Origin: an uncultured Solirubrobacteraceae bacterium
GTDB lineage: Bacteria; Actinomycetota; Thermoleophilia; Solirubrobacterales; Solirubrobacteraceae
DNA length: 64,000 nt
NCBI GenBank assembly: GCA_963715385.1
Contig: OY970237.1
Span: forward strand, 2,334,610-2,398,609
Direction: 5' to 3'
Positions 8,555 through 52,135 of this stretch are shown in pieces. How positions within the stretch are numbered: the first letter of the stretch is position 1; each line of letters begins with the position of its first letter. Made by a program: the position numbers and the translations under genes. The notes under the pieces were generated by a model that saw only the letters and a list, made by a program, of their open reading frames with translations, was not told the origin of the DNA and ran no database searches.

Positions 8555-9868
8555 ATGGGAAACCTTGCCCAGCAGCTGCGTGTACTGCGCCACCGCGACT
8601 TTCGCTACCTGTGGCTCGCCCAATCGGCGAGCGTGATCGGCGACTGCATCGTGATCGTCGCGCTGGCGCTGTTCGTGATCGAACTCACGGGCTCGGCGAC
8701 CGACCTCGGGCTGGTGCTGGCCGCCGCGAGTCTGCCACTGGTGGCGTTCCTGCTGATCGGCGGCGTGTGGGCGGATCGCCTCGCGCGCCATCGCGTGATG
8801 ATCGTGACCGATCTCGTGCGCTTCACGCTGCACGCGCTGCTCGCGGCGCTGATCTTCACCGGGGAGATCGAGATCTGGCAGCTGATCGTGATCGAGGCGC
8901 TGTTCGGCACGGCCGAGGCGTTCTTCCGCCCGGCCGCGAACGGGCTGCTCCCGCAGACGGTGCCCGAGACCGAGATCCAGGCGGCCAACGGGCTCAGCTC
9001 GCTGTCGAACAACATCGGCGAGTTCGCCGGACCGGCGCTCGCGACCGCGCTCGTCCTGGGGCTCGGCGCGGGTTGGGCGTTCGCGCTCGACGCGGGCACG
9101 TTCCTGCTCAGCGCCACCCTGCTCGCGCGTGTGCGCCCGCGCCGCCGGGCGACCGCGGCCGGCGCTGAAAGCACTATGGCCAAACGGCTCAGCGTGTGGA
9201 CCGACATTCGTGAGGGCTCGCGCGAGGTGCGCTCGCGCGCCTGGGTGTGGGCCACGCTCGCGGCGTTCTGCGCCGCCCTGTTCACCGCCCTGGCGCCGTG
9301 GTTCGTGCTCGGGCCGGTCGTCGCGCGCGAGCAGTACGGCGACATCGGCGTCTACGGGATCGTCGCCGCCGCGCTCGGCATCGGCACGATCGTCGGCTCG
9401 CTGTGGGGAACCGCCTGGCGCCCTCGCTACCCGATGCGTGCGGCGATGCTCGCGATCCTGCTATGGCCCGCCTCGGCGATCATGTACGCAGCAGGCGTGA
9501 CGCTCTTCGCCGTGATCCCCACGATCGTGATCGGCGGCATCGGCATCGCGCTGTTCGACGTGTGGTGGACGACGGCGCTGGCCGAGCGGATACCGCCCGC
9601 CAAGCTCTCGCGCGTCAGCTCCTATGACTGGATGGTCTCACTCGCGCTGCTGCCGCTCGGCTACGTGCTGGCCGGCCCGCTCGCGCACGCGCTGGGCGCG
9701 GTCGAGGTGCTGCTCGGCGGCTCGGCGCTCGGCTGCCTGGCGCTCGCCGCGGGGCTGCTGCCAAGGGAAACGCGGATGCTCGAGCGGCTCGACGACGGCG
9801 ATCACCCCGCCGGCGAGGCTCCGGCGGCAGCAGGCGAGCCGCTTCCCGGCTTCGCCCACTGGTCCTGA
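8555..9868 (+). CDS. MFS transporter (DHA3/MefA-like)
   Basis: LRHRDFRYLW, GGVWADRLARHR, about 12 hydrophobic segments. Confidence 0.88.
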   Translation: MGNLAQQLRVLRHRDFRYLWLAQSASVIGDCIVIVALALFVIELTGSATDLGLVLAAASLPLVAFLLIGGVWADRLARHRVMIVTDLVRFTLHALLAALIFTGEIEIWQLIVIEALFGTAEAFFRPAANGLLPQTVPETEIQAANGLSSLSNNIGEFAGPALATALVLGLGAGWAFALDAGTFLLSATLLARVRPRRRATAAGAESTMAKRLSVWTDIREGSREVRSRAWVWATLAAFCAALFTALAPWFVLGPVVAREQYGDIGVYGIVAAALGIGTIVGSLWGTAWRPRYPMRAAMLAILLWPASAIMYAAGVTLFAVIPTIVIGGIGIALFDVWWTTALAERIPPAKLSRVSSYDWMVSLALLPLGYVLAGPLAHALGAVEVLLGGSALGCLALAAGLLPRETRMLERLDDGDHPAGEAPAAAGEPLPGFAHWS

Positions 9869-9902
9869 ACATCCTCCGTGCGCTTTGGCGTAGGGTGGCG
9901 GG

Positions 9903-10973
9903 GTGGACTTCCTCGTTGCCAAGGACGACCTCCACCGCTGCAGGTTCTCCGAGGACCCGCCACCAGAGCTCGAGCCCGGCCAGGCGCTCCTGAGCGTCGA
10001 GCGCTTCGGTCTGACCTCGAACAACATCACCTACGCGATGTTCGGCGAGGCGATGTCCTACTGGAGCTTCTTTCCGGCGCCGGACGGCTGGGGCCGCGTG
10101 CCGATGTGGGGTTTTGCCGAGGTGACGGCGAGCCTGCAGGACGCGCTCGAGGTGGGCACCCGCATATATGGCTATTTGCCCCCTTCCAGCGAGCTCGTCG
10201 TCACCCCCGAGCGTGTCGGCGCCGGCGGCTTCGTGGACGCCTCCGCACATCGAGCAGCGCTACCGGCCGCCTACAACGGCTACGCGAACGTCACCGCCGA
10301 TCCGGTCTACGAGGCGGACTCCGAGGATCTGCAGATGCTGCTCCGGCCACTGTTCTTCACCTCGTACCTGATCGACGACTTCCTCGACGATGCCAAGATG
10401 TTCGGCGCCGGCAGCGTGATCCTCTCGAGCGCCTCGAGCAAGACGGCAAGCGCGCTGGCGTTCCTGCTCTCACACCGCGAGGGTGTCGAAGTCGTCGGCC
10501 TGACGTCATCCACGAGCGCCGACTTCACGCGCGGATTGGGCGTCTATGACCGCGTGCTCGCCTACGAGGAAATCGACGCGCTCGCCGACGGGACCGCCGT
10601 GTACGTCGACATGGCCGGTAACGCCGAGGTGCGAAACGCCGTCCACGGTCATCTCGGCGAGGCGCTCGCCCATTCGGCGGTCGTCGGGGCAACGCACCAC
10701 GACCAGAGGGGTGCGGTATCCGACTCGCTGCCCGGGGCGCCGCCAACGTTCTTCTTCGCACCTGACCGCATCGCCAAGCGCACGAAGGAGTGGGGACGCG
10801 ACGGCGTCGAACGCCGGATCGCCGATGCCTGGCGTCCTTACGCCGAGTGGGCCAGGGGCTGGCTCGAGGTGGTCGAGGGCAGCGGAACAGAGGAGCTGGA
10901 GCATGCCTACCTCGACCTTCTGGACGGGCGCATCGACCCGGCGAAGGCGCACGTGCTCTCGCTGACGCGCTAG
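9903..10973 (+). CDS. DUF2855-like protein (MDR-like fold)
   Basis: FGLTSNNITYA, YWSFFP, RVPMWGFA, LSSASSKTA. Confidence 0.75.
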   Translation: MDFLVAKDDLHRCRFSEDPPPELEPGQALLSVERFGLTSNNITYAMFGEAMSYWSFFPAPDGWGRVPMWGFAEVTASLQDALEVGTRIYGYLPPSSELVVTPERVGAGGFVDASAHRAALPAAYNGYANVTADPVYEADSEDLQMLLRPLFFTSYLIDDFLDDAKMFGAGSVILSSASSKTASALAFLLSHREGVEVVGLTSSTSADFTRGLGVYDRVLAYEEIDALADGTAVYVDMAGNAEVRNAVHGHLGEALAHSAVVGATHHDQRGAVSDSLPGAPPTFFFAPDRIAKRTKEWGRDGVERRIADAWRPYAEWARGWLEVVEGSGTEELEHAYLDLLDGRIDPAKAHVLSLTR

Positions 10974-11016
10974 CCGCTTGCACCGTCTCTGAGCGTCGCT
11001 CGCCGTTGGCCGGCGG

Positions 11017-11283
11017 TCAGCCGACCCGGGCGTGAGAATCGCTGGCGTGCGCCGCGACCGGCGCCCCGACCGCAGCCTCGACGGGCGCCGCGTGGACCGG
11101 CGTGGCCGGCGGCTGCGGCTGAGCGCTCAACGGCGCGTGCGTGTGCTCGCCGCTGAGCGTCTCCCTGAAGCCCCGCATCCCCGTCCCGAGCGAGCGTCCC
11201 ATCTCGGGAAGCCGCTTGGCTCCGAACACGAGCAGCAGCAGAATCAAGAGGAAGGCGATGTGAATTGGATTGTCAAGACCCAT
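11017..11283 (-). CDS. tatA: Twin-arginine translocase TatA/TatE subunit
   Basis: TM helix then FGAKRLPEMGRSLG.GMRGFR. Confidence 0.85.
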   Translation of the reverse strand: MGLDNPIHIAFLLILLLLVFGAKRLPEMGRSLGTGMRGFRETLSGEHTHAPLSAQPQPPATPVHAAPVEAAVGAPVAAHASDSHARVG

Positions 11284-11346
11284 TGTGTGAATCAACTCCC
11301 GAGGTTCGAGTTCCCATTCCCGGGCGGAAAAGGGAGATGTCTGAAC

Positions 11347-41176: not shown

Positions 41177-41480
41177 CCGCCCAGAATTTTCTTGTCGACG
41201 TGTGCGGCCTGGCCGCGCTGGGTGCGGGCGTGCCTGAGCTTGCGCTGGAGGCCGGAGTGGCCGGGGCCTTCCAACGGTATCGAGCCAGGACATCCACAAT
41301 GAGGGCGCGCACGTGTGGACGTCTGGCGATGGCCGACGAGCTCACCGGCTGGGCACGCTTCCCTACGCGAGGACAGGCGTTCGCGCACGCCGGGGTCAAC
41401 GGTGCTAACGGGACGATTCTCGAAACATGACTCTGACTGGGAACAAATCCGCGAGCTGCACTCCCTGCGCTACACCGAAC

Positions 41481-42023: not shown

Positions 42024-42300
42024 GAACGCTGCTTGGGACGCTTTAGCGGTGCGATCAGACGCACCGCGCTGGCGCCTACCGCTCTCGCTCCCATCACGGT
42101 CGGAGTTCGAATAACGGCCTCACACCCGGCCAAAACGGGGAGATCGGGACGACTTGCGAACCCCGTCCTAGACCGCTTTCTTGAGCATCTCATGGAGCCA
42201 GTCGGTCGGCAAGCGCGGCGGCGGGCGGCAGAGGCCATCCGAAGCCGTGGCCGGAGCGATTTGGCTCGACCAACGAGTAGACGCGCATAAGCTGGTAGCG

Positions 42301-43518
42301 GTGTCCCCGCTGCTATTCGACGAGGTCGTGCGCACGGATGGCTCCCCTGGGCTTCGGTCCGAGGACAGCTTCAGCTTCCTGAACAGGGCTCACGGCATCG
42401 TTTGCCGCCGCATCCGCGACCAACTGGACCGTTGGTACGCGGCGTTTCCTGATGAGGACGGCGATCTCCGTCGTCGCTATCGCTCCCGAGATCCTCGACA
42501 GCACTACGCGGCTTGGTGGGAGTTGTATCTGCACACCCTGCTGACGACTCTGGGCTATGACCTGACCGTGCACCCCGAGATACTGGGGCACAAAGGTCGT
42601 CCCGATTTCCTGGCGGAGCGCGAGGGCGAGTCCTTCTACGTCGAGGCCGTGACGGTGTTCTCGGGGATTGTTGATCGGAGCCGACGAGAAGCGCTTGAGG
42701 CGGCCGTACTCGATGTAGTCGACGCGGTCGATTCGTCGCGCTTCATGGTTCGCATCGGTTTGGAGCGAGTAGGACAGTCGATGCCTACTACGAGGTCGAT
42801 CGTGGAGCCGATCGAAACGTGGCTGGCGACCCTTGATGTCGATGACATCCTCACGAAATATCCGGGCGGGTACTCGCCCGAAAAGAAGCGCATTGCCTTT
42901 GCAGACTGGGTGGTCGAGTTGAGTCCGATCGCTCGGGCACCAGAGCATCGAGGCTGCCCCGACAATCTGCTTATCGGTATAGGCCCTAGCTCGGGTGGCT
43001 ATACGAACGACGTCCAGCAGATTCGGCGTGCGGTGACGCGGAAGAAGAAACAGCTCGGAAGGCCAGACAAGCCCCTGGTTGTAGCTGCACTCGCCCCGAG
43101 CGGGACCGTCGACAACTGGGTTATCGAGAACGTGCTGTTCGGCAGCGAAGCGGTGCGCATCGGACCGTCGGGTGCCACGTCAATAGGTCGTAGTCCGGAT
43201 GGCATTTGGATCGGCAAGCGCGGGCCTGCCACGAAACGAATGTCGGCGCTCCTTATCGGCGTCGCGATTGTGCCACATACCTGCGCAACGGCGTGGCCGA
43301 CTTTGTGGCACCACTTCGATCCGACCCACGCGCTAAATGCGGACCTGCCGTTTTCCTCAACGCGCGTCGTCGACGAAAGGCTCGTCGTCGAGGACGCAAA
43401 GCTTTCTGCGTCGCAAGTCCTCGATCTGCCCGTTGACTGGCCTGGACCCGAGCCGGCTTTCCCGCGCTGCCAGCATCGGCCCGGGGATCACTCCGTACCG
43501 TCAGATCGGTCGGCATAA
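42301..43518 (+). CDS. Hypothetical protein with PD-(D/E)XK-like nuclease motif
   Basis: WWELYLH...GRPDFLAEREGESFYVEA; start uncertain (42181 or 42301). Confidence 0.55.
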   Translation: MSPLLFDEVVRTDGSPGLRSEDSFSFLNRAHGIVCRRIRDQLDRWYAAFPDEDGDLRRRYRSRDPRQHYAAWWELYLHTLLTTLGYDLTVHPEILGHKGRPDFLAEREGESFYVEAVTVFSGIVDRSRREALEAAVLDVVDAVDSSRFMVRIGLERVGQSMPTTRSIVEPIETWLATLDVDDILTKYPGGYSPEKKRIAFADWVVELSPIARAPEHRGCPDNLLIGIGPSSGGYTNDVQQIRRAVTRKKKQLGRPDKPLVVAALAPSGTVDNWVIENVLFGSEAVRIGPSGATSIGRSPDGIWIGKRGPATKRMSALLIGVAIVPHTCATAWPTLWHHFDPTHALNADLPFSSTRVVDERLVVEDAKLSASQVLDLPVDWPGPEPAFPRCQHRPGDHSVPSDRSA

Positions 43519-43521
43519 GAC

Positions 43522-44079
43522 ATGAAGCCCGATGAGAATGCCGTGCCTCATGTCATCGAGCCAATCTCCCGCGAGGATTGGGAGCAACGCCAGGTCTATG
43601 CGAAGTTCGGCCTAGCGATCTATTGCTGCCAATGCCTTGAGTCTCAGCTAGTCAATTACCTCGCTCTGCTGCGTCGAATAAAGACAGGCCGCCCAATGAC
43701 GGGTGATGAGATCGATGCGCTTTTTGACCGCTTGTTCGGCGGCACATTCGGCCGGAATCTCAAGGAAGTCCGCAATCTGCTCGGGGATCAGTGGGCTATG
43801 GCCGAGGAGCTGACGTCAGCGCTCAACCTGCGCAACCAGTTGGTACATCACTGGATGAGAGATCGTGCGCTTGAGCAGGGTACGAGCAGAAAGCGTCGCG
43901 CGATGGTGGACGAGCTCGATGAAGTCATCGAGCAGCTTGAGACCATTGACGCGAAGCTCACGGAGACCACACGGCACCTGCAAGACAGAGCTGGCATACC
44001 CCGATCACTCATCGACAGGGAGTACGAGGAGCTACGTCGCATCGCCGACAGCGATGAACCCACAACCTCGACGACGTAA
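43522..44079 (+). CDS. HEPN-like all-helical protein
   Basis: Q.LE motif and Rx4H (RNQLVH). Confidence 0.55.
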   Translation: MKPDENAVPHVIEPISREDWEQRQVYAKFGLAIYCCQCLESQLVNYLALLRRIKTGRPMTGDEIDALFDRLFGGTFGRNLKEVRNLLGDQWAMAEELTSALNLRNQLVHHWMRDRALEQGTSRKRRAMVDELDEVIEQLETIDAKLTETTRHLQDRAGIPRSLIDREYEELRRIADSDEPTTSTT

Positions 44080-44132
44080 GCTAGCGTTCAACGCCGGAAC
44101 TGATTGCCGGTCGCTGCTGCCAGACTGCGCCA

Positions 44133-44897
44133 ATGGCGTCGGGCCGAAAGCGGACGAGAAGCAATCGACAGGCGGGGAGCGCTAGGGCCAAGCCCCACGA
44201 TCCGAGGATGTCCGGCACCCAGGTCGCCGCCGACGCTGACGAAGGCATCAAAAAGGGCGACTGGCTCGTCGTCGTGTCCCCGGTGAACCTAGACGACGGT
44301 GGCCGGTTGCTGTGGTGGCCGCCGCAGCCAGTCGCCTTCAACCTGCTCGAAGCTAAGCGCCACCGTGATCGCGGCGTTCGCCAGCGTCGGCGCATCATGG
44401 GGAACCTCGTCGCCCGGCCAGACGGTAGCGGCTTGCAGCCATCGAATGCTCACGCTGCTCTCGACTGTCTTTCCGAACTCGCCGCTGCGGTCCTGTTCTC
44501 TTTCACGGCGGTCGAGAGCTTGGCGAACCACGCCATCGAGTCGCTACCTGATGACACGGTTGTCACGCTCCGAAAAGGACGCCAGCTTCCCAAGGCAGAA
44601 CTGGTCGCCAACGTCGGGGTCGACGAAAAGCTCAAGCGAATCGTCCCGCTGGCCGACGGCGGAAAAGACGTAGCTAGCACTGTTATCTGGCAGCGCTATC
44701 GAGCACTCAAGTTTCTCCGCGACGAGCTAGTGCATGTCAAGGCGCGCGGGTACGACCCCGATCCTGACGTCAGAACCGCATACGACCGTCTCATGGTCGG
44801 CGAGGGCGACGGATGCGTAGAAGATGCGCAAACCGTCATCGAGGGCGCGTTCCCAGCATTCCTACCAGCACACGTACTCGCTGCGCTCGCAGCCTAG
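44133..44897 (+). CDS. HEPN-like protein
   Basis: F.AVESLAN motif and Rx4H (RDELVH). Confidence 0.55.
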   Translation: MASGRKRTRSNRQAGSARAKPHDPRMSGTQVAADADEGIKKGDWLVVVSPVNLDDGGRLLWWPPQPVAFNLLEAKRHRDRGVRQRRRIMGNLVARPDGSGLQPSNAHAALDCLSELAAAVLFSFTAVESLANHAIESLPDDTVVTLRKGRQLPKAELVANVGVDEKLKRIVPLADGGKDVASTVIWQRYRALKFLRDELVHVKARGYDPDPDVRTAYDRLMVGEGDGCVEDAQTVIEGAFPAFLPAHVLAALAA

Positions 44898-45051: not shown

Positions 45052-46050
45052 TCAACTATCCTGGCTAGTAACAACCCCAATAGTTGATATCGAAGTCGGA
45101 TAGGCCACTCCACCCAGCGCCGGCAGCGCTGCAACAATATCGTCACGCTGCGCATCGCGGGCGGTGATCGCGAACATACATCCACCTTCACCTCCCCCGG
45201 TCAACTTAGCGCCTGCAGCTCCCGCGTGAAGGCTAGCGTCAACCATTTCGTCAATCTGCCGCGTTGAGCTTCCCATGAGCCCGGCTATTGCGTGATGACA
45301 AGCCGTCACATCCTGTGCAACAGCGAAAAGCTCTTCGTTCTTAGCGAGAGCATCTGCCATCTCGCACACCAGCTCCGCAGTTTGCCTCTGATACTCCATA
45401 ATAGAAACGTCGCGCAACCTAAAGCGCTCTCGCTTTTTCGCAATGCTATGTGCGGTCGCTGCTCGTACGCCCGAATCACCGACCACAATCACAGCTCGCA
45501 CATTGGGAAAATCTAGTACCGACACCTGTTTTTCATTTTCAAAGTGAGTCAAGCGAGTACCACCAAGGCCGCATGACCAAAAATCCATTTCACCGGCACC
45601 GGTGCGGAGCCGCTCGATCTCGGCACGGAACGCAAGTTCACAAAGAGCTTCTTTCGTTAGCAGATGACCAAGCTCGCCAGCAACGGCCGCGATAGTCGCG
45701 ATAAGACAGGCGGCGCTACTAGCAAGACCAGCAGCGATCGGGAGTGTGCTCGTCAGTGCTATTTTTCCTGCGAAATGGCCAAACTCTGAGCTTGCACAGG
45801 CAAGCGCAGCTGCTGGGAAATCGAGCTCGTCGTCTCTCCGATCGGCCGCATCTGCGATCCGAAACGTTCGCTCTACACCGACCGGCCATCCGGAGGACAG
45901 CACGACCATCCCGTTGTTATCACTAGGTTCTATTTCCGCAACCGCTGTTACCGCGAGATCGATCGCTGCTTGGAGGGTACTGCCCCCCATCCAGTCGAGA
46001 TCCTCGCCACCAAGACAGATCCTTCCTGGGCACTTTGCGCGCGTTGGCAT
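45052..46050 (-). CDS. GHMP kinase (galactokinase/mevalonate kinase-like)
   Basis: PGRICLGGEDLD, LPIAAGLASSAA, GAKLTGGGEGG. Confidence 0.85.
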   Translation of the reverse strand: MPTRAKCPGRICLGGEDLDWMGGSTLQAAIDLAVTAVAEIEPSDNNGMVVLSSGWPVGVERTFRIADAADRRDDELDFPAAALACASSEFGHFAGKIALTSTLPIAAGLASSAACLIATIAAVAGELGHLLTKEALCELAFRAEIERLRTGAGEMDFWSCGLGGTRLTHFENEKQVSVLDFPNVRAVIVVGDSGVRAATAHSIAKKRERFRLRDVSIMEYQRQTAELVCEMADALAKNEELFAVAQDVTACHHAIAGLMGSSTRQIDEMVDASLHAGAAGAKLTGGGEGGCMFAITARDAQRDDIVAALPALGGVAYPTSISTIGVVTSQDS

Positions 46051-46065
46051 ACCTTATTTGTAAGG

Positions 46066-46503
46066 CTAAGACGAGTAGTCCTCGTCAACCACCTTGTCGT
46101 TCTTGATCTTCTCGTGCTTGTCTTCCCCACTAAGCACTAGTCGAAATACCACAAACGTCGCATCCTCGTCAGCGACATTTGCGAAGGTATGCACGCTACG
46201 CCCAACGCGGACGACATCACCACTGCCGATCGTCTCGCACTTAGTTGTTCCCCTATTCCGCCATCTCACCTCCAGCTCACCCTTGAGTACCAAGACCGTC
46301 TCCTCAATAGCTTCATGGTGGTGCCACTGCTGCACCGTACCTGGCGCGATCTCATTGAAGTGAAGCTCGTACTCAGCAAAAATGTAGTAACTAACCTTGG
46401 TGCCTTCACCCTTGTCCACATCAATTGCCTGGGTTCGCCTCACGATCTCCACTGAGTCGCCTGGGTCTTTTACGGCACTATCGTATCTCGGGATGTCACT
46501 CAT
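46066..46503 (-). CDS. Cupin domain protein
   Basis: WHHHEAIEETVLVLKGEL and VHTFAN motifs. Confidence 0.85.
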   Translation of the reverse strand: MSDIPRYDSAVKDPGDSVEIVRRTQAIDVDKGEGTKVSYYIFAEYELHFNEIAPGTVQQWHHHEAIEETVLVLKGELEVRWRNRGTTKCETIGSGDVVRVGRSVHTFANVADEDATFVVFRLVLSGEDKHEKIKNDKVVDEDYSS

Positions 46504-47636
46504 ATGAACATGTCGTAATCGTCCACATTACGTGTCGGCTCTCCATCGATCAACCACTGATTGGACTGATGCCTGATACAACTAAAGGAGCAGTCCCGTG
46601 ACGGGTTTACACGCTTTGCCGCTGCCAAGCGCGCGTTAGAGGTCCACATTTCACGAAAACCTTCTGTTGACGGATCGCCATACCGTGCGGAGGCGTTCCC
46701 ACGATGATAGGGGCACAAGTACGCGCCCGACGGGGTGAGCAGTGTCCGAAGCTCAACTGTGGGGCAATGATGATATGTCTTCGGCTCATCAAGTCGTTCA
46801 TCGGCGATTACTTTGTCAAGATGTGCAGGTGCAATTACATTGAAGGCCTCGCATTGAATATCGGCCGCAGCGGCAAGTTCGTCTATCAGAAGTTCACGTA
46901 GCTCACGGGGTTGGGCGACGAGTCGATGATTGAGGTCATACTCGGGCTTGAACTCGATGTAGTCGCATCCGATATCTCGCGCTAGGTGCGCCGCAGCCGC
47001 AACCTCGTCAAAGTTATGGTGGAGAATTGTTTTGCCTCTACGGGCGCGCCGCGCGATGAGTAGAAAGGAGTAACCAAGTGAACCGCGCCGATCGCGCGCC
47101 AGTGATCTGACGTTCTCGACCACCTCGGCAAAAGTGTCGCGCGTGCCACCGCGGCGCGGGCGAAACAAGTTGTAGGTGGCTGCAGACGCCGCATCGACGG
47201 AGACACGTGTCCATTCGACGTATCGCGCAACCACATCATGATGACGGTTCAACTGGGTGCCGTTTGTAGTAAGACCAACGGCAACATTTGCCTCTGCAAA
47301 CGCCTCGATGACGTCAGCGACCACTGGATGTAGCAACGGCTCCCCGCCGCCAATCAGGATCACAGCGCGAACACCGACCTCGCAGATCTCGGCGGCGAGC
47401 TCCAATAGTCTCTCGTTGGAGAACCGGCCGCGGTTCAAAAGCGAGCCACTGATGCACTCCGGGCAGGCCAGGTCACAGAACGTTGTCACATCGAGCTCAA
47501 CGACGGTCGGGGCGGCTAGTGACTTGCCCTCACGTACCTTCCCTACCTCTAGCGATAGCGAGCGCTGGTGAAGCTTCTCCGCGAGAGCGAGCCTTGAGCG
47601 GTGGTCGACTCGAGCTGACACGGACTGTACGATCAT
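46500..47636 (-). CDS. Radical SAM protein with SPASM/twitch domain
   Basis: CDLACPEC, GGGEPLL, TTNG, RVSVD; C-terminal CPT...CPY...C...C. Confidence 0.9.
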   Translation of the reverse strand: MIVQSVSARVDHRSRLALAEKLHQRSLSLEVGKVREGKSLAAPTVVELDVTTFCDLACPECISGSLLNRGRFSNERLLELAAEICEVGVRAVILIGGGEPLLHPVVADVIEAFAEANVAVGLTTNGTQLNRHHDVVARYVEWTRVSVDAASAATYNLFRPRRGGTRDTFAEVVENVRSLARDRRGSLGYSFLLIARRARRGKTILHHNFDEVAAAAHLARDIGCDYIEFKPEYDLNHRLVAQPRELRELLIDELAAAADIQCEAFNVIAPAHLDKVIADERLDEPKTYHHCPTVELRTLLTPSGAYLCPYHRGNASARYGDPSTEGFREMWTSNARLAAAKRVNPSRDCSFSCIRHQSNQWLIDGEPTRNVDDYDMFI

Positions 47637-48187
47637 TATTCGCTCCGTTCGGGGTCGTGCCTTAGTTTAAGTGATATCGGGGCAAAAAGCTCCGCCCAGT
47701 CGCGGGGATCGTCACCAGAGGTGTCCACGCAGCCCAGAGTGTCCAAATGCAGATTGAGCGGCATCATTGCGCGCAGATCGGTCGCTACTGCCTCACGTTC
47801 GGCTTCGTCAAGGGAGCCATAGATCGCGCTTAGATGCGGAAGATAGGGACGCGCTTGCTTGTGGCGCAAGGCGCGCCCACAGGCAGATCGGACGGCAAGT
47901 AGTGGCGCAGTCGCAGGGCATACGAAGAAGACACATTGGTAATAGGCTGTCGTATGCTCGACCGAATCGACTTGCAGGTCGATCGGCAGCTGGTCACAGG
48001 CGATCTCATCTAGAAGGCGCTCCACGTCGGCGATGTTAGCGGCGTCGCCGTTCCCGATGACGGTGACGTGAGGCGGAAATGGAGGGGTCCCGTGGGCAGC
48101 GGATAGCCGGTTGATGACCGCGGCGAGCTTGTCGGCCTGCTCTGCGCATGGGCGTAGCCATATCGAGAGTGCTCGGCTGGAAGTCAT
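47636..48187 (-). CDS. 2H phosphoesterase / cyclic phosphodiesterase
   Basis: PPHVT and LPHLS motifs; TAATG coupling to radical SAM gene. Confidence 0.85.
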   Translation of the reverse strand: MTSSRALSIWLRPCAEQADKLAAVINRLSAAHGTPPFPPHVTVIGNGDAANIADVERLLDEIACDQLPIDLQVDSVEHTTAYYQCVFFVCPATAPLLAVRSACGRALRHKQARPYLPHLSAIYGSLDEAEREAVATDLRAMMPLNLHLDTLGCVDTSGDDPRDWAELFAPISLKLRHDPERSE

Positions 48188-48224
48188 TCCACGCCTGCAA
48201 ACATATCGAGCTGGCATCGCTCCA

Positions 48225-48821
48225 TCAGATAAGGCCGAGCAAGTGTGCCGCGCCAAGCACTGCGGACACCGCTACTGCGCTGGTCGCGAAGTTTTGAAGT
48301 CCGGATGCGAGCAAGTCGCGCACACTGGGACCAGTTGTTTCCATCGCCCGGTGTTTGGTAAGGGGGTTGCGAGCCGGCGCATTTTTCGGTTCCGGGTCGA
48401 CGATCCCAAACCATACGCTCCCAAGGAGGAGTCCGCGCTCGATACGAACAGCCTTCTTCCCAGCATTGAAGACTGTGGGCTTGATCTGCCCCTCGAAGTT
48501 CGGATCGACCTTGAGGTTAGCGACGAGCAGTCCGTTGGCCGCCTGCGATGTCTTCGAACATACCTGCCCGAACACATTCTTGGGCGTTTTGATTTTCTCG
48601 TCAACCTCAATGCGCACGCACTCGCCGGGCTTTAGTGCGAAGCCCTTCTCTCCTATATCCTGCTCGCCGCCGAAATCGACCTCGTAGACCTCTCCGACAT
48701 GGAGATCGAGCGCGACACGCTCTGGCCCCTTCAACATCTTCTTGATCAGATCAACGTCCTCGTCCCGAGCACTTTCGACAGTGATTTCAGCTTTTCCCCA
48801 GCACTCAATAGGAATGATCAC
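48225..48821 (-). CDS. dCTP deaminase/dUTPase-fold protein with C-terminal hydrophobic helix
   Basis: DLHVG, LKPGE, SKTS, VDPNFEG, VFNAG; tail FATSAVAVSAVLGAAHLLGLI. Confidence 0.7.
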   Translation of the reverse strand: MIIPIECWGKAEITVESARDEDVDLIKKMLKGPERVALDLHVGEVYEVDFGGEQDIGEKGFALKPGECVRIEVDEKIKTPKNVFGQVCSKTSQAANGLLVANLKVDPNFEGQIKPTVFNAGKKAVRIERGLLLGSVWFGIVDPEPKNAPARNPLTKHRAMETTGPSVRDLLASGLQNFATSAVAVSAVLGAAHLLGLI

Positions 48822-49056
48822 TCACGGCCCCTCCAGTTAGCCTCTGCCGAGCTTGCCGCCTGACGCCTAGCAGATCTGAATGTCGGAATAATAGCCGCTG
48901 ATGATCTTCAGCGCATCCCTGGAGTCGCCCTGTCAGTCTCGGTGCTCGCCTGTCGCACAAGTGCCATTCGGCGGCGGGCATTCTCCCGTAGGCCGTAGCG
49001 CAGTATTGCTGCGTGGTGGCCTACGGGATCAGCCGTATGCGCTTCGGGTTCGATGG

Positions 49057-49317
49057 TTAGACGACGCGCCCGCCTTGTAGCTCGGTGTAGCGGATCGCTT
49101 GCCGAGTGGCGAAGATGAATCCGTCGACCGTTCGGTGGATGAGCCCCGCTCGGCGCAGAGACCCCAGGGCGTCGTCTGCGTCGATTGAATCCCCGACCTC
49201 GCGGCCTATCTCGTCGGGGGACCAAATGGATTGCTCGGAGGGCTCGACTAGGAGGTGCAGGACTGCTAGCTCAACGGCGTCGAAGCGTTCGGCAGGTGTA
49301 CGCTCGTCATCGGACAT
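49057..49317 (-). CDS. Small winged-helix-like protein, paralog A
   Basis: GREVGDSIDADDAL..L...GLIHR...FIFATR.AI. Confidence 0.65.
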   Translation of the reverse strand: MSDDERTPAERFDAVELAVLHLLVEPSEQSIWSPDEIGREVGDSIDADDALGSLRRAGLIHRTVDGFIFATRQAIRYTELQGGRVV

Positions 49318-49466: not shown

Positions 49467-49718
49467 CTACCAAGTCGCGCCAAAGAGGTCGTGCAGGTGG
49501 ATGGCGGCGCGGGTGGGGAAAACGTAGTCGCCCTGGCGATGGATGAGCCCGACGTCGGAGAGGACGCGCATGGCGTCGAGGGCGACGATCAGGTCGCCGA
49601 CGTGGCGGCCAAGTTGCTCGACCGTGTACCAGTCCTCACCGGCCCACAGGACGAGCATGAGGATTTGCCGTTCAAAGTTCGACGGCACGTCGTCATAGTC
49701 GAGGGCAGTCTTTGTCAT
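49467..49718 (-). CDS. Small winged-helix-like protein, paralog B
   Basis: GRHVGDLIVALDAM..L...GLIHR...YVFPTR.AI. Confidence 0.65.
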   Translation of the reverse strand: MTKTALDYDDVPSNFERQILMLVLWAGEDWYTVEQLGRHVGDLIVALDAMRVLSDVGLIHRQGDYVFPTRAAIHLHDLFGATW

Positions 49719-49786: not shown

Positions 49787-50146
49787 TCAGCGGGGTTTAC
49801 GACGACCGGCCACCGATGCCTCGATGCGCTCCATGCCGCTACGGATCGCGGCAAGCTCGGAAAGCACGCGCTGCTCGAAGGCACCGCTTCCGGCCTCGCG
49901 GCCAGCGATCCGCATCAGCTCGAGGCGGTCGGCGCTAAGCACCTCGGCCAGCCGCTCTATGACCTCATCGCCGGGCGGCCCGTAATCGCCGACCTCGACC
50001 CTCGACAAGTGACCAGGGCTCATCGGTAGCTGTTCGGCTACCTCGCGTTGAGTCGGCTTCTTCTCGCGGCGTAGGGAGCGGATGCGTTCGCCGAAGGCGA
50101 CGGCACGCTCGGCTTGGGATTTGGGGCGTCGTGCAGGCGCCACCAA
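49787..50146 (-). CDS. XRE family HTH regulator (5' end possibly altered)
   Basis: FGERIRSLRRE...TQREVAE....SPGHLSRVE.G. Confidence 0.8.
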   Translation of the reverse strand: MVAPARRPKSQAERAVAFGERIRSLRREKKPTQREVAEQLPMSPGHLSRVEVGDYGPPGDEVIERLAEVLSADRLELMRIAGREAGSGAFEQRVLSELAAIRSGMERIEASVAGRRKPR

Positions 50147-50403: not shown

Positions 50404-50495
50404 TGGCGGAGAGGGCGGGATTCGAACCCGCGATGGAGTTTGACCCCCATACTCGCTTAGCAGGCGAGTGCCTTCAGCCACTCGGCCACCTCTCC
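50404..50495 (-). tRNA. tRNA-Ser(GCT), CCA encoded
   Basis: GGAGAGG acceptor, CTCGC-CTGCTAA-GCGAG anticodon arm, long variable arm, GGTTCGAATCC. Confidence 0.97.
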
Positions 50496-50565
50496 CGGGA
50501 ATAGGGGTGCCAGTGTAGAGACTGACAAGCCCTGCCGAGAGACCACGTAGCATCTGAGGCCCTCC

Positions 50566-50655
50566 GGAAGGGTGGCAGAGCGGTTGAATGCGGCGGTCTT
50601 GAAAACCGTTAGGCGGGCAACACCCGTCTCGGGGGTTCGAATCCCCCCCCTTCCG
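50566..50655 (+). tRNA. tRNA-Ser(TGA), CCA not encoded
   Basis: GGAAGGG/CCCTTCC acceptor, GCGGT-CTTGAAA-ACCGT anticodon arm, GGTTCGAATCC. Confidence 0.97.
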
Positions 50656-50807
50656 TCCCGCGTCTAGTGGCCCCTCATGGCGACATCGCGTGTCGCATGT
50701 CCGGGTAGAGCTTGATCTGACGATCGTCTGCGAGCCCGGCCCAGGGTGGCGAGTCATCGGGTCGATTCCGGAGGTCGCTGGGGTCTCAGCCGGGGCCGCG
50801 GGTTGCG

Positions 50808-52002: not shown

Positions 52003-52135
52003 AAGAACTACACGCTACTCATTGCCGGGAAACGTCATCCGAAGCGCCGGGCGTGCAGCTCTTGTATTCGTTGCCAGCCGAGCGCATGTTTCGAGAGTCG
52101 TCCCGTCAAGCCCCGCTGCCGAGGCAAGGATCCGC

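What the first reader, a model, noticed from the sequence alone, without database searches (positions are those of the whole stretch)
45052..48821. Five-gene nucleotide/sugar-modification operon: Dcd-like(TM), 2H phosphoesterase, radical SAM/SPASM, cupin, GHMP kinase
The genes are tightly linked (37-nt gap, TAATG, ATGA, 15-nt gap), lower in GC and inside a defence-rich island. The chemistry implies phosphodiester opening, radical modification, isomerisation and phosphorylation of a sugar or nucleoside. The kinase sugar site reads GEDLD, not galactokinase GEHTD. No glycosyl- or nucleotidyltransferase is present, arguing against a surface-glycan role. Hypotheses (inference): production of an antiviral nucleotide analogue, or a modified-nucleotide signal read by the membrane-anchored Dcd-like protein. 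I know no described system with this set.
Basis: partly seen in the sequence, partly recalled or inferred. Interest (0 to 1): 0.8.

Follow-up and report, generated by a model that had tools for sequence, protein, structure and literature searches.

The report
Mobile radical-SAM sugar/nucleotide-tailoring five-gene cassette
A real, tightly packed five-gene operon of unknown function, found so far in only about six contigs and mostly in mobile, defence-like islands, probably makes a modified phosphorylated sugar or nucleotide by radical chemistry; a role in phage defence is plausible but unproven.

Summary
The five minus-strand genes exist as described: a dUTPase/Dcd-fold protein with a C-terminal membrane helix, a 2H phosphoesterase, a radical SAM enzyme, a cupin and a GHMP kinase. 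Junctions are 37 nt, TAATG, ATGA and 15 nt. GC is 0.57 against 0.68 in the rest of the window.

The set recurs in at least four other contigs (rSAM 64-69% identical). Its surroundings change and are often mobile or defence-like (CBASS, PIN, integrase, NERD, Mrr).

The stable core is rSAM-cupin-GHMP. Chromosomal actinobacterial relatives keep this core beside sugar- and nucleotide-handling genes: UDP-sugar pyrophosphorylase, NDP-sugar epimerase, NUDIX, an NDK-like protein, PGM/PMM and PfkB.

A more distant rSAM clade lies in glycan-type clusters and in phage 5-hmdU hypermodification clusters.

The rSAM is not a viperin. Its nearest structures are BlsE and DesII. The Dcd-like protein lacks the deaminase glutamate and most resembles archaeal Dcd-type dUTPases. 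It belongs to a family of at least 141 clusters of membrane-anchored proteins.

PADLOC and the literature searches returned no described system. The best reading is a mobile sugar/nucleotide-tailoring cassette, probably conflict-related. The product and the protective role are unknown.

The parts
48225..48821 (-). dUTPase/dCTP-deaminase-fold protein (198 aa) with a C-terminal transmembrane helix. The deaminase Glu is absent.
   Evidence: Pfam DCD 3e-9. The AF2 model has pLDDT 80, a beta core and a helix at 167-197. Hydropathy predicts a TM at 178-198. The best Foldseek hit is Thermococcus pacificus dUTPase 8y1w (TMt 0.81, rmsd 2.9), followed by E. coli Dcd. E. coli Dcd Glu138 aligns to Thr, and 'RSS...R' aligns to 'KTS...A'. 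There are 141 clusters in the family at E<=1e-10. All 60 members fetched were ~185-280 aa apart from one 431-aa fusion, with a hydrophobic stretch near the C-terminus.
47636..48187 (-). 2H (cyclic) phosphoesterase, 183 aa from ATG 48187. The longest ORF, from TTG 48256, would overlap the upstream gene.
   Evidence: PF13563 9e-12 and PF07823 CPDase 2e-8. Both catalytic motifs, PPHVT and PHLS, are invariant in the four cassette homologues. Homologue alignments begin near residue 28 of the long ORF.
46500..47636 (-). Radical SAM enzyme (378 aa) with a CX3CX2C motif (C54, C58, C61) and a C-terminal four-Cys auxiliary-cluster (twitch-like) domain. It belongs to a large uncharacterised family.
   Evidence: PF04055. 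Every NCBIfam hit is far below its cut-off; viperin scores 36.5 against 180. 508 protein clusters match at E<=0.001 and at least 564 genome loci encode a relative. Invariant Cys and many invariant Arg/Lys/His are listed. The AF2 model has pLDDT 92. Top Foldseek hits are BlsE and DesII, then SuiB, SkfB, PqqE, anSME and viperin.
46066..46503 (-). Small metal-binding cupin (145 aa).
   Evidence: Cupin_2 3e-9. H61, H63, E67/E68 and H105 are invariant in seven homologues. It always accompanies the rSAM and kinase in the closest clades.
45052..46050 (-). GHMP-family kinase (332 aa), galactokinase/mevalonate-kinase-like, with an N-terminal PGRICLGGEDLDW motif.
   Evidence: Pfam GHMP N and C domains plus the GalK signature. 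It is below all NCBIfam equivalog cut-offs. The motifs GEDLDW, P-x3-GL-x-SSA, G-x-MDF and TGxGxGGC are conserved. The source's gene call of 312 aa would cut off the conserved N-terminal motif.
48822..49056 (-). 235-bp upstream intergenic region, the presumed promoter and regulatory region of the operon.
   Evidence: This is the only sizeable non-coding gap at the 5' end. The simple sigma-70 scan found nothing there and is uninformative for this high-GC organism.

Best explanation
**What it is.** This is a horizontally transferred operon. Its conserved core (radical SAM enzyme, cupin, GHMP kinase) is a sugar or nucleotide-sugar tailoring and activation pathway. The core descends from chromosomal actinobacterial versions. 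In this mobile clade it has picked up a 2H cyclic phosphodiesterase and a membrane-anchored dUTPase-fold protein.

**Proposed working (inferred, not shown).**
1. The rSAM abstracts a hydrogen from the sugar ring of a phosphate-bearing substrate, as DesII, BlsE and viperin do. It thereby dehydrates, deaminates or decarboxylates the substrate to a keto- or deoxy-sugar.
2. The metal-cupin isomerises or epimerises that product.
3. The GHMP kinase phosphorylates a sugar hydroxyl, most likely the anomeric one.
4. The 2H enzyme opens a cyclic phosphate, either a 2',3'-cyclic or a sugar 1,2-cyclic phosphate. This step either feeds the pathway or recycles a by-product.
5. The dUTPase-fold protein binds or hydrolyses a pyrimidine (deoxy)nucleotide at the membrane.

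**Proposed role.** The product would be a modified sugar-phosphate or nucleotide-like metabolite used in inter-genomic conflict. That could be phage defence by a small molecule or by envelope modification. The role is inferred only from where the cassette sits.

**What is shown.** The gene content, the intact catalytic motifs, the conservation of the set, horizontal acquisition, and the surroundings of relatives.
For: - Operon anatomy and low GC.
- The same set and order occur in L001 and L084. L085 keeps the set without the 2H gene. L086 and the P0006 contig carry a multi-pass membrane protein instead of the DCD-TM protein, plus a TPR insert.
- The module's GC is below its flanks in the window, L001 and L084. 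It matches the host in Amycolatopsis and Streptomyces.
- The NJ tree places the window clade inside a kinase-linked, mostly actinobacterial clade, next to the Amycolatopsis and Actinomycetospora rSAM-cupin-GHMP loci.
- Relatives in that clade sit beside UDPGP, GHMP-NUDIX-GalE/RmlB-like SDR, an NDK-like protein, PfkB and PGM/PMM.
- The nearest solved structures of the rSAM are the nucleoside-sugar and NDP-sugar enzymes BlsE and DesII.
- The rSAM has many invariant Arg/Lys/His residues, which suggests an anionic substrate (inference).
- The 2H HxT/S motifs, the cupin metal site and the GHMP motifs are intact.
- The DCD-like domain resembles an archaeal Dcd-type dUTPase.
- Island neighbours of the cassette are CBASS with Cap15 and SIR2, PIN, an integrase and a transposase; NERD and Mrr_cat/ATPase; and NACHT with FGE-sulfatase. 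In the window it lies in a tRNA-adjacent island bounded by a 64-nt inverted repeat.
Against: - No substrate or product is known, and every catalytic step is inferred from family membership.
- Only about six instances exist. Two of them (L086 and the P0006 contig) share the same context. L001 has no obvious defence neighbours.
- No component other than a weak core-only pVip hit matches PADLOC.
- The cassette has no glycosyltransferase or nucleotidyltransferase, so the fate of a sugar-1-phosphate product is unexplained.
- The DCD-TM protein also works in another two-gene context. It may therefore not be part of the chemistry.
- GHMP kinases also phosphorylate hydroxy-acids and hydroxy-amino acids. 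The best NCBIfam hit is mevalonate kinase, below its cut-off.
Confidence: 0.4

Rival explanations
1. Viperin-like antiviral system. The rSAM converts a ribonucleotide into a dehydrated or deoxy chain-terminating analogue. The substrate would be supplied after the 2H enzyme opens a 2',3'-cyclic NMP. The kinase helps to phosphorylate the analogue, and the dUTPase-fold protein handles the pyrimidine nucleotide pool or protects the host.
For: - The cassette lies in defence-like islands.
- The rSAM core gives its only PADLOC hits to pVip (1e-11, residues 46-157), and viperins are among the structural matches.
- The dUTPase-fold and 2H partners are nucleotide-handling families.
- An NDK-like protein lies next to a relative.
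Against: - The rSAM is not a viperin: NF038283 scores 36.5 bits against a cut-off of 180.
- It has an extra four-Cys auxiliary domain that viperins lack.
- BlsE and DesII are closer structural matches than viperin.
- GHMP kinases are not known nucleotide kinases (established knowledge).
- Sister clades sit in sugar-activation contexts.
Confidence: 0.2
2. Resident-type sugar salvage or envelope-glycan precursor pathway with no conflict role. The cassette makes or recycles an unusual sugar-1-phosphate for cell-wall or secondary-metabolite glycosylation, and it merely happens to be carried on mobile DNA.
For: - Chromosomal relatives at native GC sit beside UDPGP, an NDP-sugar epimerase/dehydratase, NUDIX, PGM/PMM and a sugar ABC transporter.
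- Distant rSAM relatives lie in DegT/GT2/GtrA glycan clusters.
- L001 has GT2, HAD and epimerase genes upstream.
Against: - The cassette clade is rare, low in GC and in variable islands with CBASS, PIN, NERD and Mrr genes.
- It lacks any transferase.
- The added 2H and dUTPase-fold TM genes are not typical of glycan pathways.
Confidence: 0.2
3. Two functionally separate units lie side by side. One is a membrane dUTPase-fold module, with or without the 2H gene. The other is the rSAM-cupin-GHMP pathway. They were joined only by island packing.
For: - The DCD-TM protein occurs without the rSAM, paired with a 140-170 aa protein, in L088, L127 and L128.
- rSAM-cupin-GHMP occurs without DCD or 2H in Amycolatopsis, Actinomycetospora and L129.
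- L085 lacks the 2H gene, and L086 lacks the DCD gene.
Against: - The same-strand order DCD-(2H)-rSAM is kept in four contigs with gaps of 14-50 nt.
- The DCD subfamily found in cassettes is a distinct, co-diverging group at 50-65% identity.
- No terminator-like site with a convincing T-tract separates the genes.
Confidence: 0.1
4. Signalling system. The enzymes make a modified nucleotide second messenger on infection, and the membrane-anchored dUTPase-fold trimer senses it and kills the cell by membrane damage.
For: - A small nucleotide-binding domain with a single TM helix resembles the effector architecture of Cap15-type proteins (resemblance recalled from established knowledge).
- The membrane component is swapped for a different multi-TM protein in L086, as effectors are swapped in defence systems.
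- The same DCD-TM family pairs with another partner elsewhere.
Against: - No infection sensor is evident.
- A five-enzyme radical pathway is an unlikely fast signal generator.
- No precedent was found.
- The DCD-TM protein keeps the dUTPase-type Asp and the Ser/Lys motif, which is compatible with catalysis rather than pure sensing.
Confidence: 0.08

Closest known systems
Prokaryotic viperins (pVips) with associated nucleotide kinases
   Same: Both pair a radical SAM enzyme with a kinase, and both are found in defence islands. The presumed substrate is a phosphorylated sugar or nucleotide, and the chemistry starts with hydrogen abstraction on a sugar ring.
   Different: The rSAM is not in the viperin family (36.5 bits against a cut-off of 180). 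It has a C-terminal four-Cys auxiliary-cluster domain. The kinase is GHMP-type, not an NMP kinase. The cupin, 2H and dUTPase-fold TM partners are extra.
BlsE (cytosylglucuronate decarboxylase) and DesII (TDP-4-amino-4,6-dideoxyglucose deaminase)
   Same: These are the best sequence and structure matches among solved proteins. Both are radical enzymes acting on a sugar attached to a nucleobase or nucleotide.
   Different: Identity is only 14-19% and TM-scores are about 0.6. Both known enzymes sit in antibiotic gene clusters, and no such cluster is present here.
Sugar-1-kinase plus UDP-sugar pyrophosphorylase salvage pathways (GHMP kinase with UDPGP/USP)
   Same: The sister clade in Amycolatopsis has UDPGP divergently next to rSAM-cupin-GHMP. 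The kinase carries galactokinase-type motifs.
   Different: The window cassette has no pyrophosphorylase. An rSAM and a cupin are not part of the known salvage routes.
dCTP deaminase / dUTPase superfamily, including anti-phage dCTP deaminases and archaeal Dcd-like dUTPases
   Same: The fold is the same. The best match is an archaeal Dcd-type dUTPase, which likewise lacks the deaminase Glu.
   Different: The C-terminal lid and motif are replaced by a linker and a transmembrane helix. RSS...R becomes KTS...A. There is no PADLOC hit to defence deaminases. No activity is known.
Phage thymidine (5-hmdU) hypermodification clusters (Lee et al. 2021, PMC8989533)
   Same: Members of the same rSAM family (38-40% identity, full length) lie in three large viral contigs next to an amino-acid:DNA transferase, a 5-hmdU DNA kinase, an FAD oxidoreductase and a thymidylate-synthase-like gene.
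   Different: Those phage rSAMs fall in the other, ligase-linked clade of the family. The described M6 gp53 rSAM isomerase is a different, SPL-like enzyme. None of the other cassette genes is present there.
C-P lyase end steps (PhnJ radical enzyme, PhnP cyclic phosphodiesterase, PhnN kinase). This is an analogy recalled from established knowledge only.
   Same: Both combine a radical enzyme, an enzyme that opens a ribose 1,2-cyclic phosphate, and a kinase acting on a sugar phosphate.
   Different: There is no homology to the Phn proteins. The 2H gene is not part of the conserved core. This analogy was not tested.

Membership tests
Viperin / pVip | Scores above the family threshold of the viperin model (NF038283; PADLOC pVip models over the full length). 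| tested here: not met
   NF038283 scores 36.5 bits against a cut-off of 180, over residues 45-157 only. PADLOC pVip hits (1e-11 to 5e-5) cover only the SAM-cluster core.
Viperin / pVip | A single [4Fe-4S] domain of about 260-300 aa with a C-terminal NTP-binding extension and no auxiliary cluster. | tested here: not met
   The protein is 378 aa with four additional invariant C-terminal Cys. Structurally it is closer to BlsE, DesII and SPASM/twitch enzymes than to viperin.
Radical SAM superfamily | A CX3CX2C cluster motif in a partial TIM barrel. | tested here: met
   C54-x3-C58-x2-C61 is invariant. PF04055 scores 1e-13. The model has pLDDT 92.
SPASM subfamily of radical SAM enzymes | A seven-Cys C-terminal motif binding two auxiliary clusters (PF13186). 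| tested here: not met
   The window protein has no PF13186 hit. Only four conserved C-terminal Cys are present, which is twitch-like. Cluster content is not testable here.
dCTP deaminase (Dcd), including anti-phage dCTP deaminases | The catalytic Glu (E. coli E138) and the Arg115/Ser111 deamination residues. | tested here: not met
   Glu138 aligns to Thr, Arg115 to Ala and RSS to KTS. TIGR02274 scores 42.9 against 92.8. There is no PADLOC hit.
Trimeric dUTPase | The five dUTPase motifs, including the C-terminal P-loop-like motif 5; dUTP hydrolysis. | tested here: inconclusive
   The motif-3 Asp (VDPNF) and a Ser/Lys motif are conserved. The best fold match is an archaeal Dcd-type dUTPase. The C-terminus is a TM helix instead of motif 5. 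Activity is not testable here.
2H phosphoesterase superfamily | Two HxT/S motifs. | tested here: met
   H40-V-T42 and H118-L-S120 are invariant in four homologues. PF13563 and PF07823 score above their cut-offs.
GHMP kinase; galactokinase proper | GHMP motifs I-III; for galactokinase, the GEHxDY sugar site and a score above the equivalog cut-off. | tested here: not met
   The GHMP motifs are present, so superfamily membership is met. The sugar site reads GEDLDW, and every galactokinase and mevalonate-kinase equivalog scores below its cut-off.
Described anti-phage defence systems (PADLOC-DB v2.0.0) | Component proteins match the system's HMMs. | tested here: not met
   Four of the five proteins have no hit, and the rSAM has only weak pVip core hits. 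The literature searches were empty.
O-antigen / capsule / surface-glycan cluster | Glycosyltransferases, a flippase or polymerase, and NDP-sugar synthesis genes in the same locus. | tested here: not met
   None of these is in the window island. They are present only around distant clade-II rSAM relatives and in part around L001.

The most novel reading that the evidence does not exclude
The cassette is a new radical-SAM-based anti-phage system unrelated to viperins. It would synthesise a modified sugar-phosphate or nucleotide. It would also use a previously unrecognised family of membrane-anchored dUTPase-fold proteins (at least 141 clusters) in one of three ways: as an effector, as a nucleotide-pool enzyme, or, more radically, as a nucleotidyl-transferring enzyme that takes the place of the UDP-sugar pyrophosphorylase found in sister loci.
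Probability: 0.3. Interest if true: 0.85.

Novelty: new variant of a known kind. Interest (0 to 1): 0.62.

Why it matters
If the cassette protects against phages, it would be a second, independent use of radical SAM chemistry in bacterial immunity after viperins. Its partner set (cupin, GHMP kinase, 2H esterase, membrane dUTPase-fold protein) is new, so the small-molecule product is probably new as well.

Whatever its role, three leads for enzymology follow:
1. A large uncharacterised rSAM family, with at least 564 genome loci, splits into a kinase-linked clade and a ligase-linked clade.
2. Members of that family lie in phage thymidine-hypermodification clusters.
3. There is a sizeable family of membrane-anchored, non-deaminase Dcd/dUTPase-fold proteins.

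Tried and rejected
- **PADLOC and PHROGs** scans of the five proteins and their neighbours gave nothing beyond weak pVip-core and generic hits.
- **Five full-text literature searches** on combinations of radical SAM, GHMP, cupin, dCTP deaminase, 2H and defence returned no relevant paper.
- **Cultured-phage database.** There is no close rSAM relative; the best hit is 23% identical.
- **Phage M6 gp53.** I tested the idea that the rSAM is the phage M6 gp53 'radical SAM isomerase'. This is rejected, because gp53 is SPL-like with a different Cys motif. The phage relatives of this family also fall in the other clade.
- **DCD-TM in other collections.** The viral-contig scan found none. The metagenome scan found only two short loci.
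- **Sequencing runs.** Only one soil metagenome holds 6% of the words, and there are no RNA data, so transcription could not be checked.
- **Rfam** scan of the island found only the two tRNAs.
- **Promoter and terminator scan** was not above shuffled expectation.
- **5'-deoxyadenosine salvage (DHAP shunt)** was considered and set aside. There is no nucleosidase or aldolase, and the kinase and isomerase families are the wrong ones.
- **RiPP maturation** was considered and set aside. SPASM/twitch structural hits exist, but there is no precursor peptide, and the family's neighbours are sugar, nucleotide or ligase enzymes throughout.
- **Isoprenoid (mevalonate kinase plus NUDIX isomerase) pathway** was considered and set aside. 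The scores are sub-threshold, and the neighbouring SDR is of the GalE/RmlB type.

Full report
**1. The observation**

The region 45052-48821 carries five co-directional minus-strand ORFs. Pfam assigns them as follows:
- a DCD-like protein, 48225-48821, PF22769, 3e-9;
- a 2H/CPDase phosphoesterase, PF13563 9e-12 and PF07823 2e-8;
- a radical SAM enzyme, 46500-47636;
- a Cupin_2 protein, 46066-46503;
- a GHMP kinase, 45052-46050, with N and C domains and the galactokinase N-terminal signature.

The junctions are a 37-nt gap (with the 2H start at ATG 48187), TAATG, ATGA and a 15-nt gap. Module GC is 0.566 against 0.684 for the rest of the window. A wider low-GC island runs from about 41.4 to 52.1 kb and includes two divergent tRNA-Ser genes.

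Three details need correcting:
- No SPASM domain is detected. Four invariant C-terminal Cys point to a twitch-like auxiliary-cluster domain.
- The window island holds no confidently recognisable defence gene. There are only weak PD-T7-1/-5-like hits and a sub-threshold BrnT hit.
- The source's own gene call for the kinase (312 aa) removes the conserved PGRICLGGEDLDW motif. The 332-aa start is supported by homologues.

**2. Conservation of the set**

The rSAM belongs to a large family. It gave 508 protein clusters at E<=0.001 and at least 564 loci in species-representative genomes.

Its closest clade (64-69% identity) comprises a handful of metagenomic contigs:
- L084 has DCD-2H-rSAM-cupin-GHMP.
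- L001 has the same five genes.
- L085 has DCD-rSAM-cupin-GHMP and no 2H gene.
- L086 and the P0006 contig have a different 209-230 aa protein, then 2H, rSAM, a TPR protein, cupin and GHMP. In L086, whose DNA could be read, that protein is multi-pass membrane.

The DCD-TM and kinase subfamilies of the cassette are just as rare and are found on the same contigs. The module's GC is below that of its flanks in the window, L001 and L084. The set is therefore a real cassette that travels horizontally. Its invariant core is rSAM-cupin-GHMP. The accessories are the 2H gene (usually present), a membrane protein at the 5' end (of two kinds) and sometimes a TPR protein.

**3. Surroundings of the cassette**

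- L086 lies directly beside a CBASS operon (CD-NTase, Cap15, SIR2), a PIN toxin, a transposase and an integrase.
- L085 lies beside NERD and Mrr_cat/ATPase genes.
- L084 sits among small HTH genes and a UvrD helicase.
- L129, a 52%-identical rSAM-TPR-cupin-GHMP locus, lies beside NACHT and FGE-sulfatase genes.
- L001 shows nothing of the kind.

The window island and L084 share small 83-86 aa proteins that flank the cassette. The window island is bracketed by a 64-nt imperfect inverted repeat whose 23-nt core occurs exactly twice in the window. This is guilt by association from about five independent contexts. It is suggestive and not conclusive.

**4. The wider family**

A neighbour-joining tree, without bootstrap, splits the sampled rSAMs into two groups.

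*Group I* is mostly actinobacterial and is linked to kinases. The window clade falls in this group, next to the Amycolatopsis and Actinomycetospora loci. Contexts in group I are:
- Kribbella: rSAM-GHMP.
- Amycolatopsis and Actinomycetospora: rSAM-cupin-GHMP. In Amycolatopsis a UDP-sugar pyrophosphorylase gene is transcribed divergently.
- Streptomyces and Kitasatospora: the rSAM is convergent with GHMP-NUDIX-GalE/RmlB-like SDR, near a sugar ABC transporter.
- Planosporangium: rSAM, an NDK-like protein, GHMP and NUDIX.
- L087: the rSAM with a PfkB sugar kinase and PGM/PMM.
- L129: a second rSAM-GHMP-PGM/PMM set.

*Group II* includes Proteobacteria, Planctomycetes, Halanaerobacter and others. 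There the rSAM is followed by an aldehyde dehydrogenase and an ATP-grasp ligase, or by an AMP-ligase and a carrier protein. DegT aminotransferase, GT2, GtrA and hexapeptide acyltransferase genes lie nearby.

Three 110-137 kb viral contigs carry group-II members. These lie inside 5-hmdU hypermodification clusters, together with an FAD oxidoreductase, an amino-acid:DNA transferase, a 5-hmdU DNA kinase and a thymidylate-synthase-like gene. A conserved 310-aa protein with no Pfam hit lies just upstream. The rSAM isomerase described for phage M6 is a different, SPL-like enzyme (PMC8989533).

It is met only for the distant group II. Group I contexts still argue that the core handles a sugar or nucleotide-sugar.

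**5. The proteins**

*rSAM.* The CX3CX2C motif is at C54, C58 and C61. Four further invariant Cys and many invariant basic residues are present. The AF2 model has pLDDT 92. Among solved proteins, BlsE is the best by sequence, followed by MoaA. By fold the best are BlsE and DesII, followed by SPASM/twitch peptide maturases, anSME and viperin. It fails the viperin model, at 36.5 bits against a cut-off of 180.

*DCD-like protein.* The model has a beta core and a helix at 167-197, and hydropathy predicts a TM segment at 178-198. The best fold and profile matches are the archaeal Dcd-type dUTPases 8y1w and 9ln0, then E. coli Dcd. The deaminase Glu138 is replaced by Thr, and Arg115 is replaced by Ala. 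The VDPNF Asp is invariant. A profile search of 1.84 billion representatives finds 141 clusters at E<=1e-10. The 60 members fetched were ~185-280 aa apart from one 431-aa fusion, had a hydrophobic stretch near the C-terminus, and lacked the Glu. In L088, L127 and L128 the protein is paired instead with a 140-170 aa protein and no rSAM is present.

*2H.* Both HxT/S motifs are invariant.

*Cupin.* The His/His/Glu/His metal site is invariant.

*Kinase.* The GHMP motifs are intact. The sugar site reads GEDLDW, and a GalK-like G-x-MD motif is present. All equivalog models score below their thresholds.

**6. Interpretation**

The shown facts fit a mobile derivative of an actinobacterial sugar or nucleotide-sugar tailoring pathway. 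I commit, at about 0.4, to the following working:
1. The rSAM performs a DesII/BlsE/viperin-type hydrogen abstraction on the sugar ring of a phosphate-bearing substrate.
2. The cupin isomerises the product.
3. The GHMP kinase phosphorylates, probably at the anomeric position.
4. The 2H enzyme opens a cyclic phosphate.
5. The dUTPase-fold protein handles a pyrimidine nucleotide at the membrane.

The product would serve a conflict-related role. All catalytic steps and the biological role are inferences.

The rivals are:
- a viperin-like chain-terminator system (0.2);
- a plain envelope or sugar-salvage pathway with no conflict role (0.2);
- two independent units packed together (0.1);
- a signal with a membrane effector (0.08).

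One speculative reading is that the dUTPase-fold protein carries out the nucleotidyl-transfer step that UDPGP performs in sister loci, and that the 2H enzyme recycles sugar 1,2-cyclic phosphate. This would make every gene part of one sugar-activation scheme. It has no precedent.

**7. Novelty and limits**

PADLOC v2 and the literature searches returned no described system with this set. Limits of this analysis are:
- There are only about six instances of the cassette.
- No transcript data exist.
- The tree has no support values.
- The locus sample of 80 is dominated by Streptomyces.
- Contexts of the wider DCD-TM family could not be retrieved.

I rate it a new variant of a known kind (radical-SAM small-molecule cassettes in mobile or defence islands), with interest 0.62.

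Noticed in passing
window 41408-41471 (+) and 52043-52106 (-): A 64-nt imperfect inverted repeat (78% complementary) brackets the whole low-GC island. Its 23-nt core, GACGGGACGAYTCTCGAAACATG, occurs exactly twice in the window against 0 expected. Each arm starts a 22-23 codon ORF (MTLTGNKSASCTPCATPNLRGPI and MRSAGNEYKSCTPGASDDVSRQ). There is no Rfam match. These may be the terminal repeats of a mobile element.
   Followed up: partly
L088 5794-6901; L127 660-1847; L128: The membrane-anchored Dcd/dUTPase-fold protein also forms a two-gene unit with a 140-170 aa protein carrying a W-CPLAVGL motif, with no rSAM nearby. The wider family has at least 141 clusters at 50% identity, and in every member examined the deaminase Glu is absent.
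   Followed up: partly
L091 7055-14125; L092; L093 (IMG/VR contigs of 110-137 kb): Phage contigs carry a member of this rSAM family (38-40% identity), preceded by a conserved 310-aa protein with no Pfam or PDB match. Its N-terminus reads YGAELE, which resembles an amidoligase (my recollection, untested). Both genes lie inside a 5-hmdU thymidine-hypermodification cluster with an FAD oxidoreductase, an amino-acid:DNA transferase, a 5-hmdU DNA kinase and a TS-like gene. This may be an undescribed DNA hypermodification.
   Followed up: partly
window 49057-49317 and 49467-49718 (-); L084 3617-4226 and 9966-10211: Two paralogous 83-86 aa proteins (40% identical) lie just upstream of the cassette. 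They have homologues on both sides of the cassette in L084. They may be regulators or a shared island backbone (D1, 93).
   Followed up: partly
window 50404-50495 (-) and 50565-50658 (+): Two divergent tRNA-Ser genes (GCT and TGA anticodons) lie inside the low-GC island, next to an XRE-type HTH gene at 49787-50146.
   Followed up: no
window 45052-46050: The collection holds this kinase as a 312-aa product. That start would delete the conserved N-terminal PGRICLGGEDLDW motif present in full-length homologues, so the upstream ATG at 46050 is the likelier start.
   Followed up: yes
L086 10183-11703; P0006 contig 9792-11315; L129 1876-3795: An FGE-sulfatase-domain protein of 506-639 aa recurs next to rSAM-(TPR)-cupin-GHMP loci. 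In L129 it sits beside a NACHT-like gene. L129 also carries a second rSAM/SPASM-GHMP-PGM/PMM set 3 kb away.
   Followed up: no
window 42181-44897 (+): Three co-directional island ORFs of 445, 185 and 254 aa have no Pfam family. The first has weak PADLOC hits to PD-T7-1 and PD-T7-5 (about 4e-6). The second has a weak CARF/HEPN-model hit and a PHROG hit. They may form a separate uncharacterised defence-like unit.
   Followed up: partly
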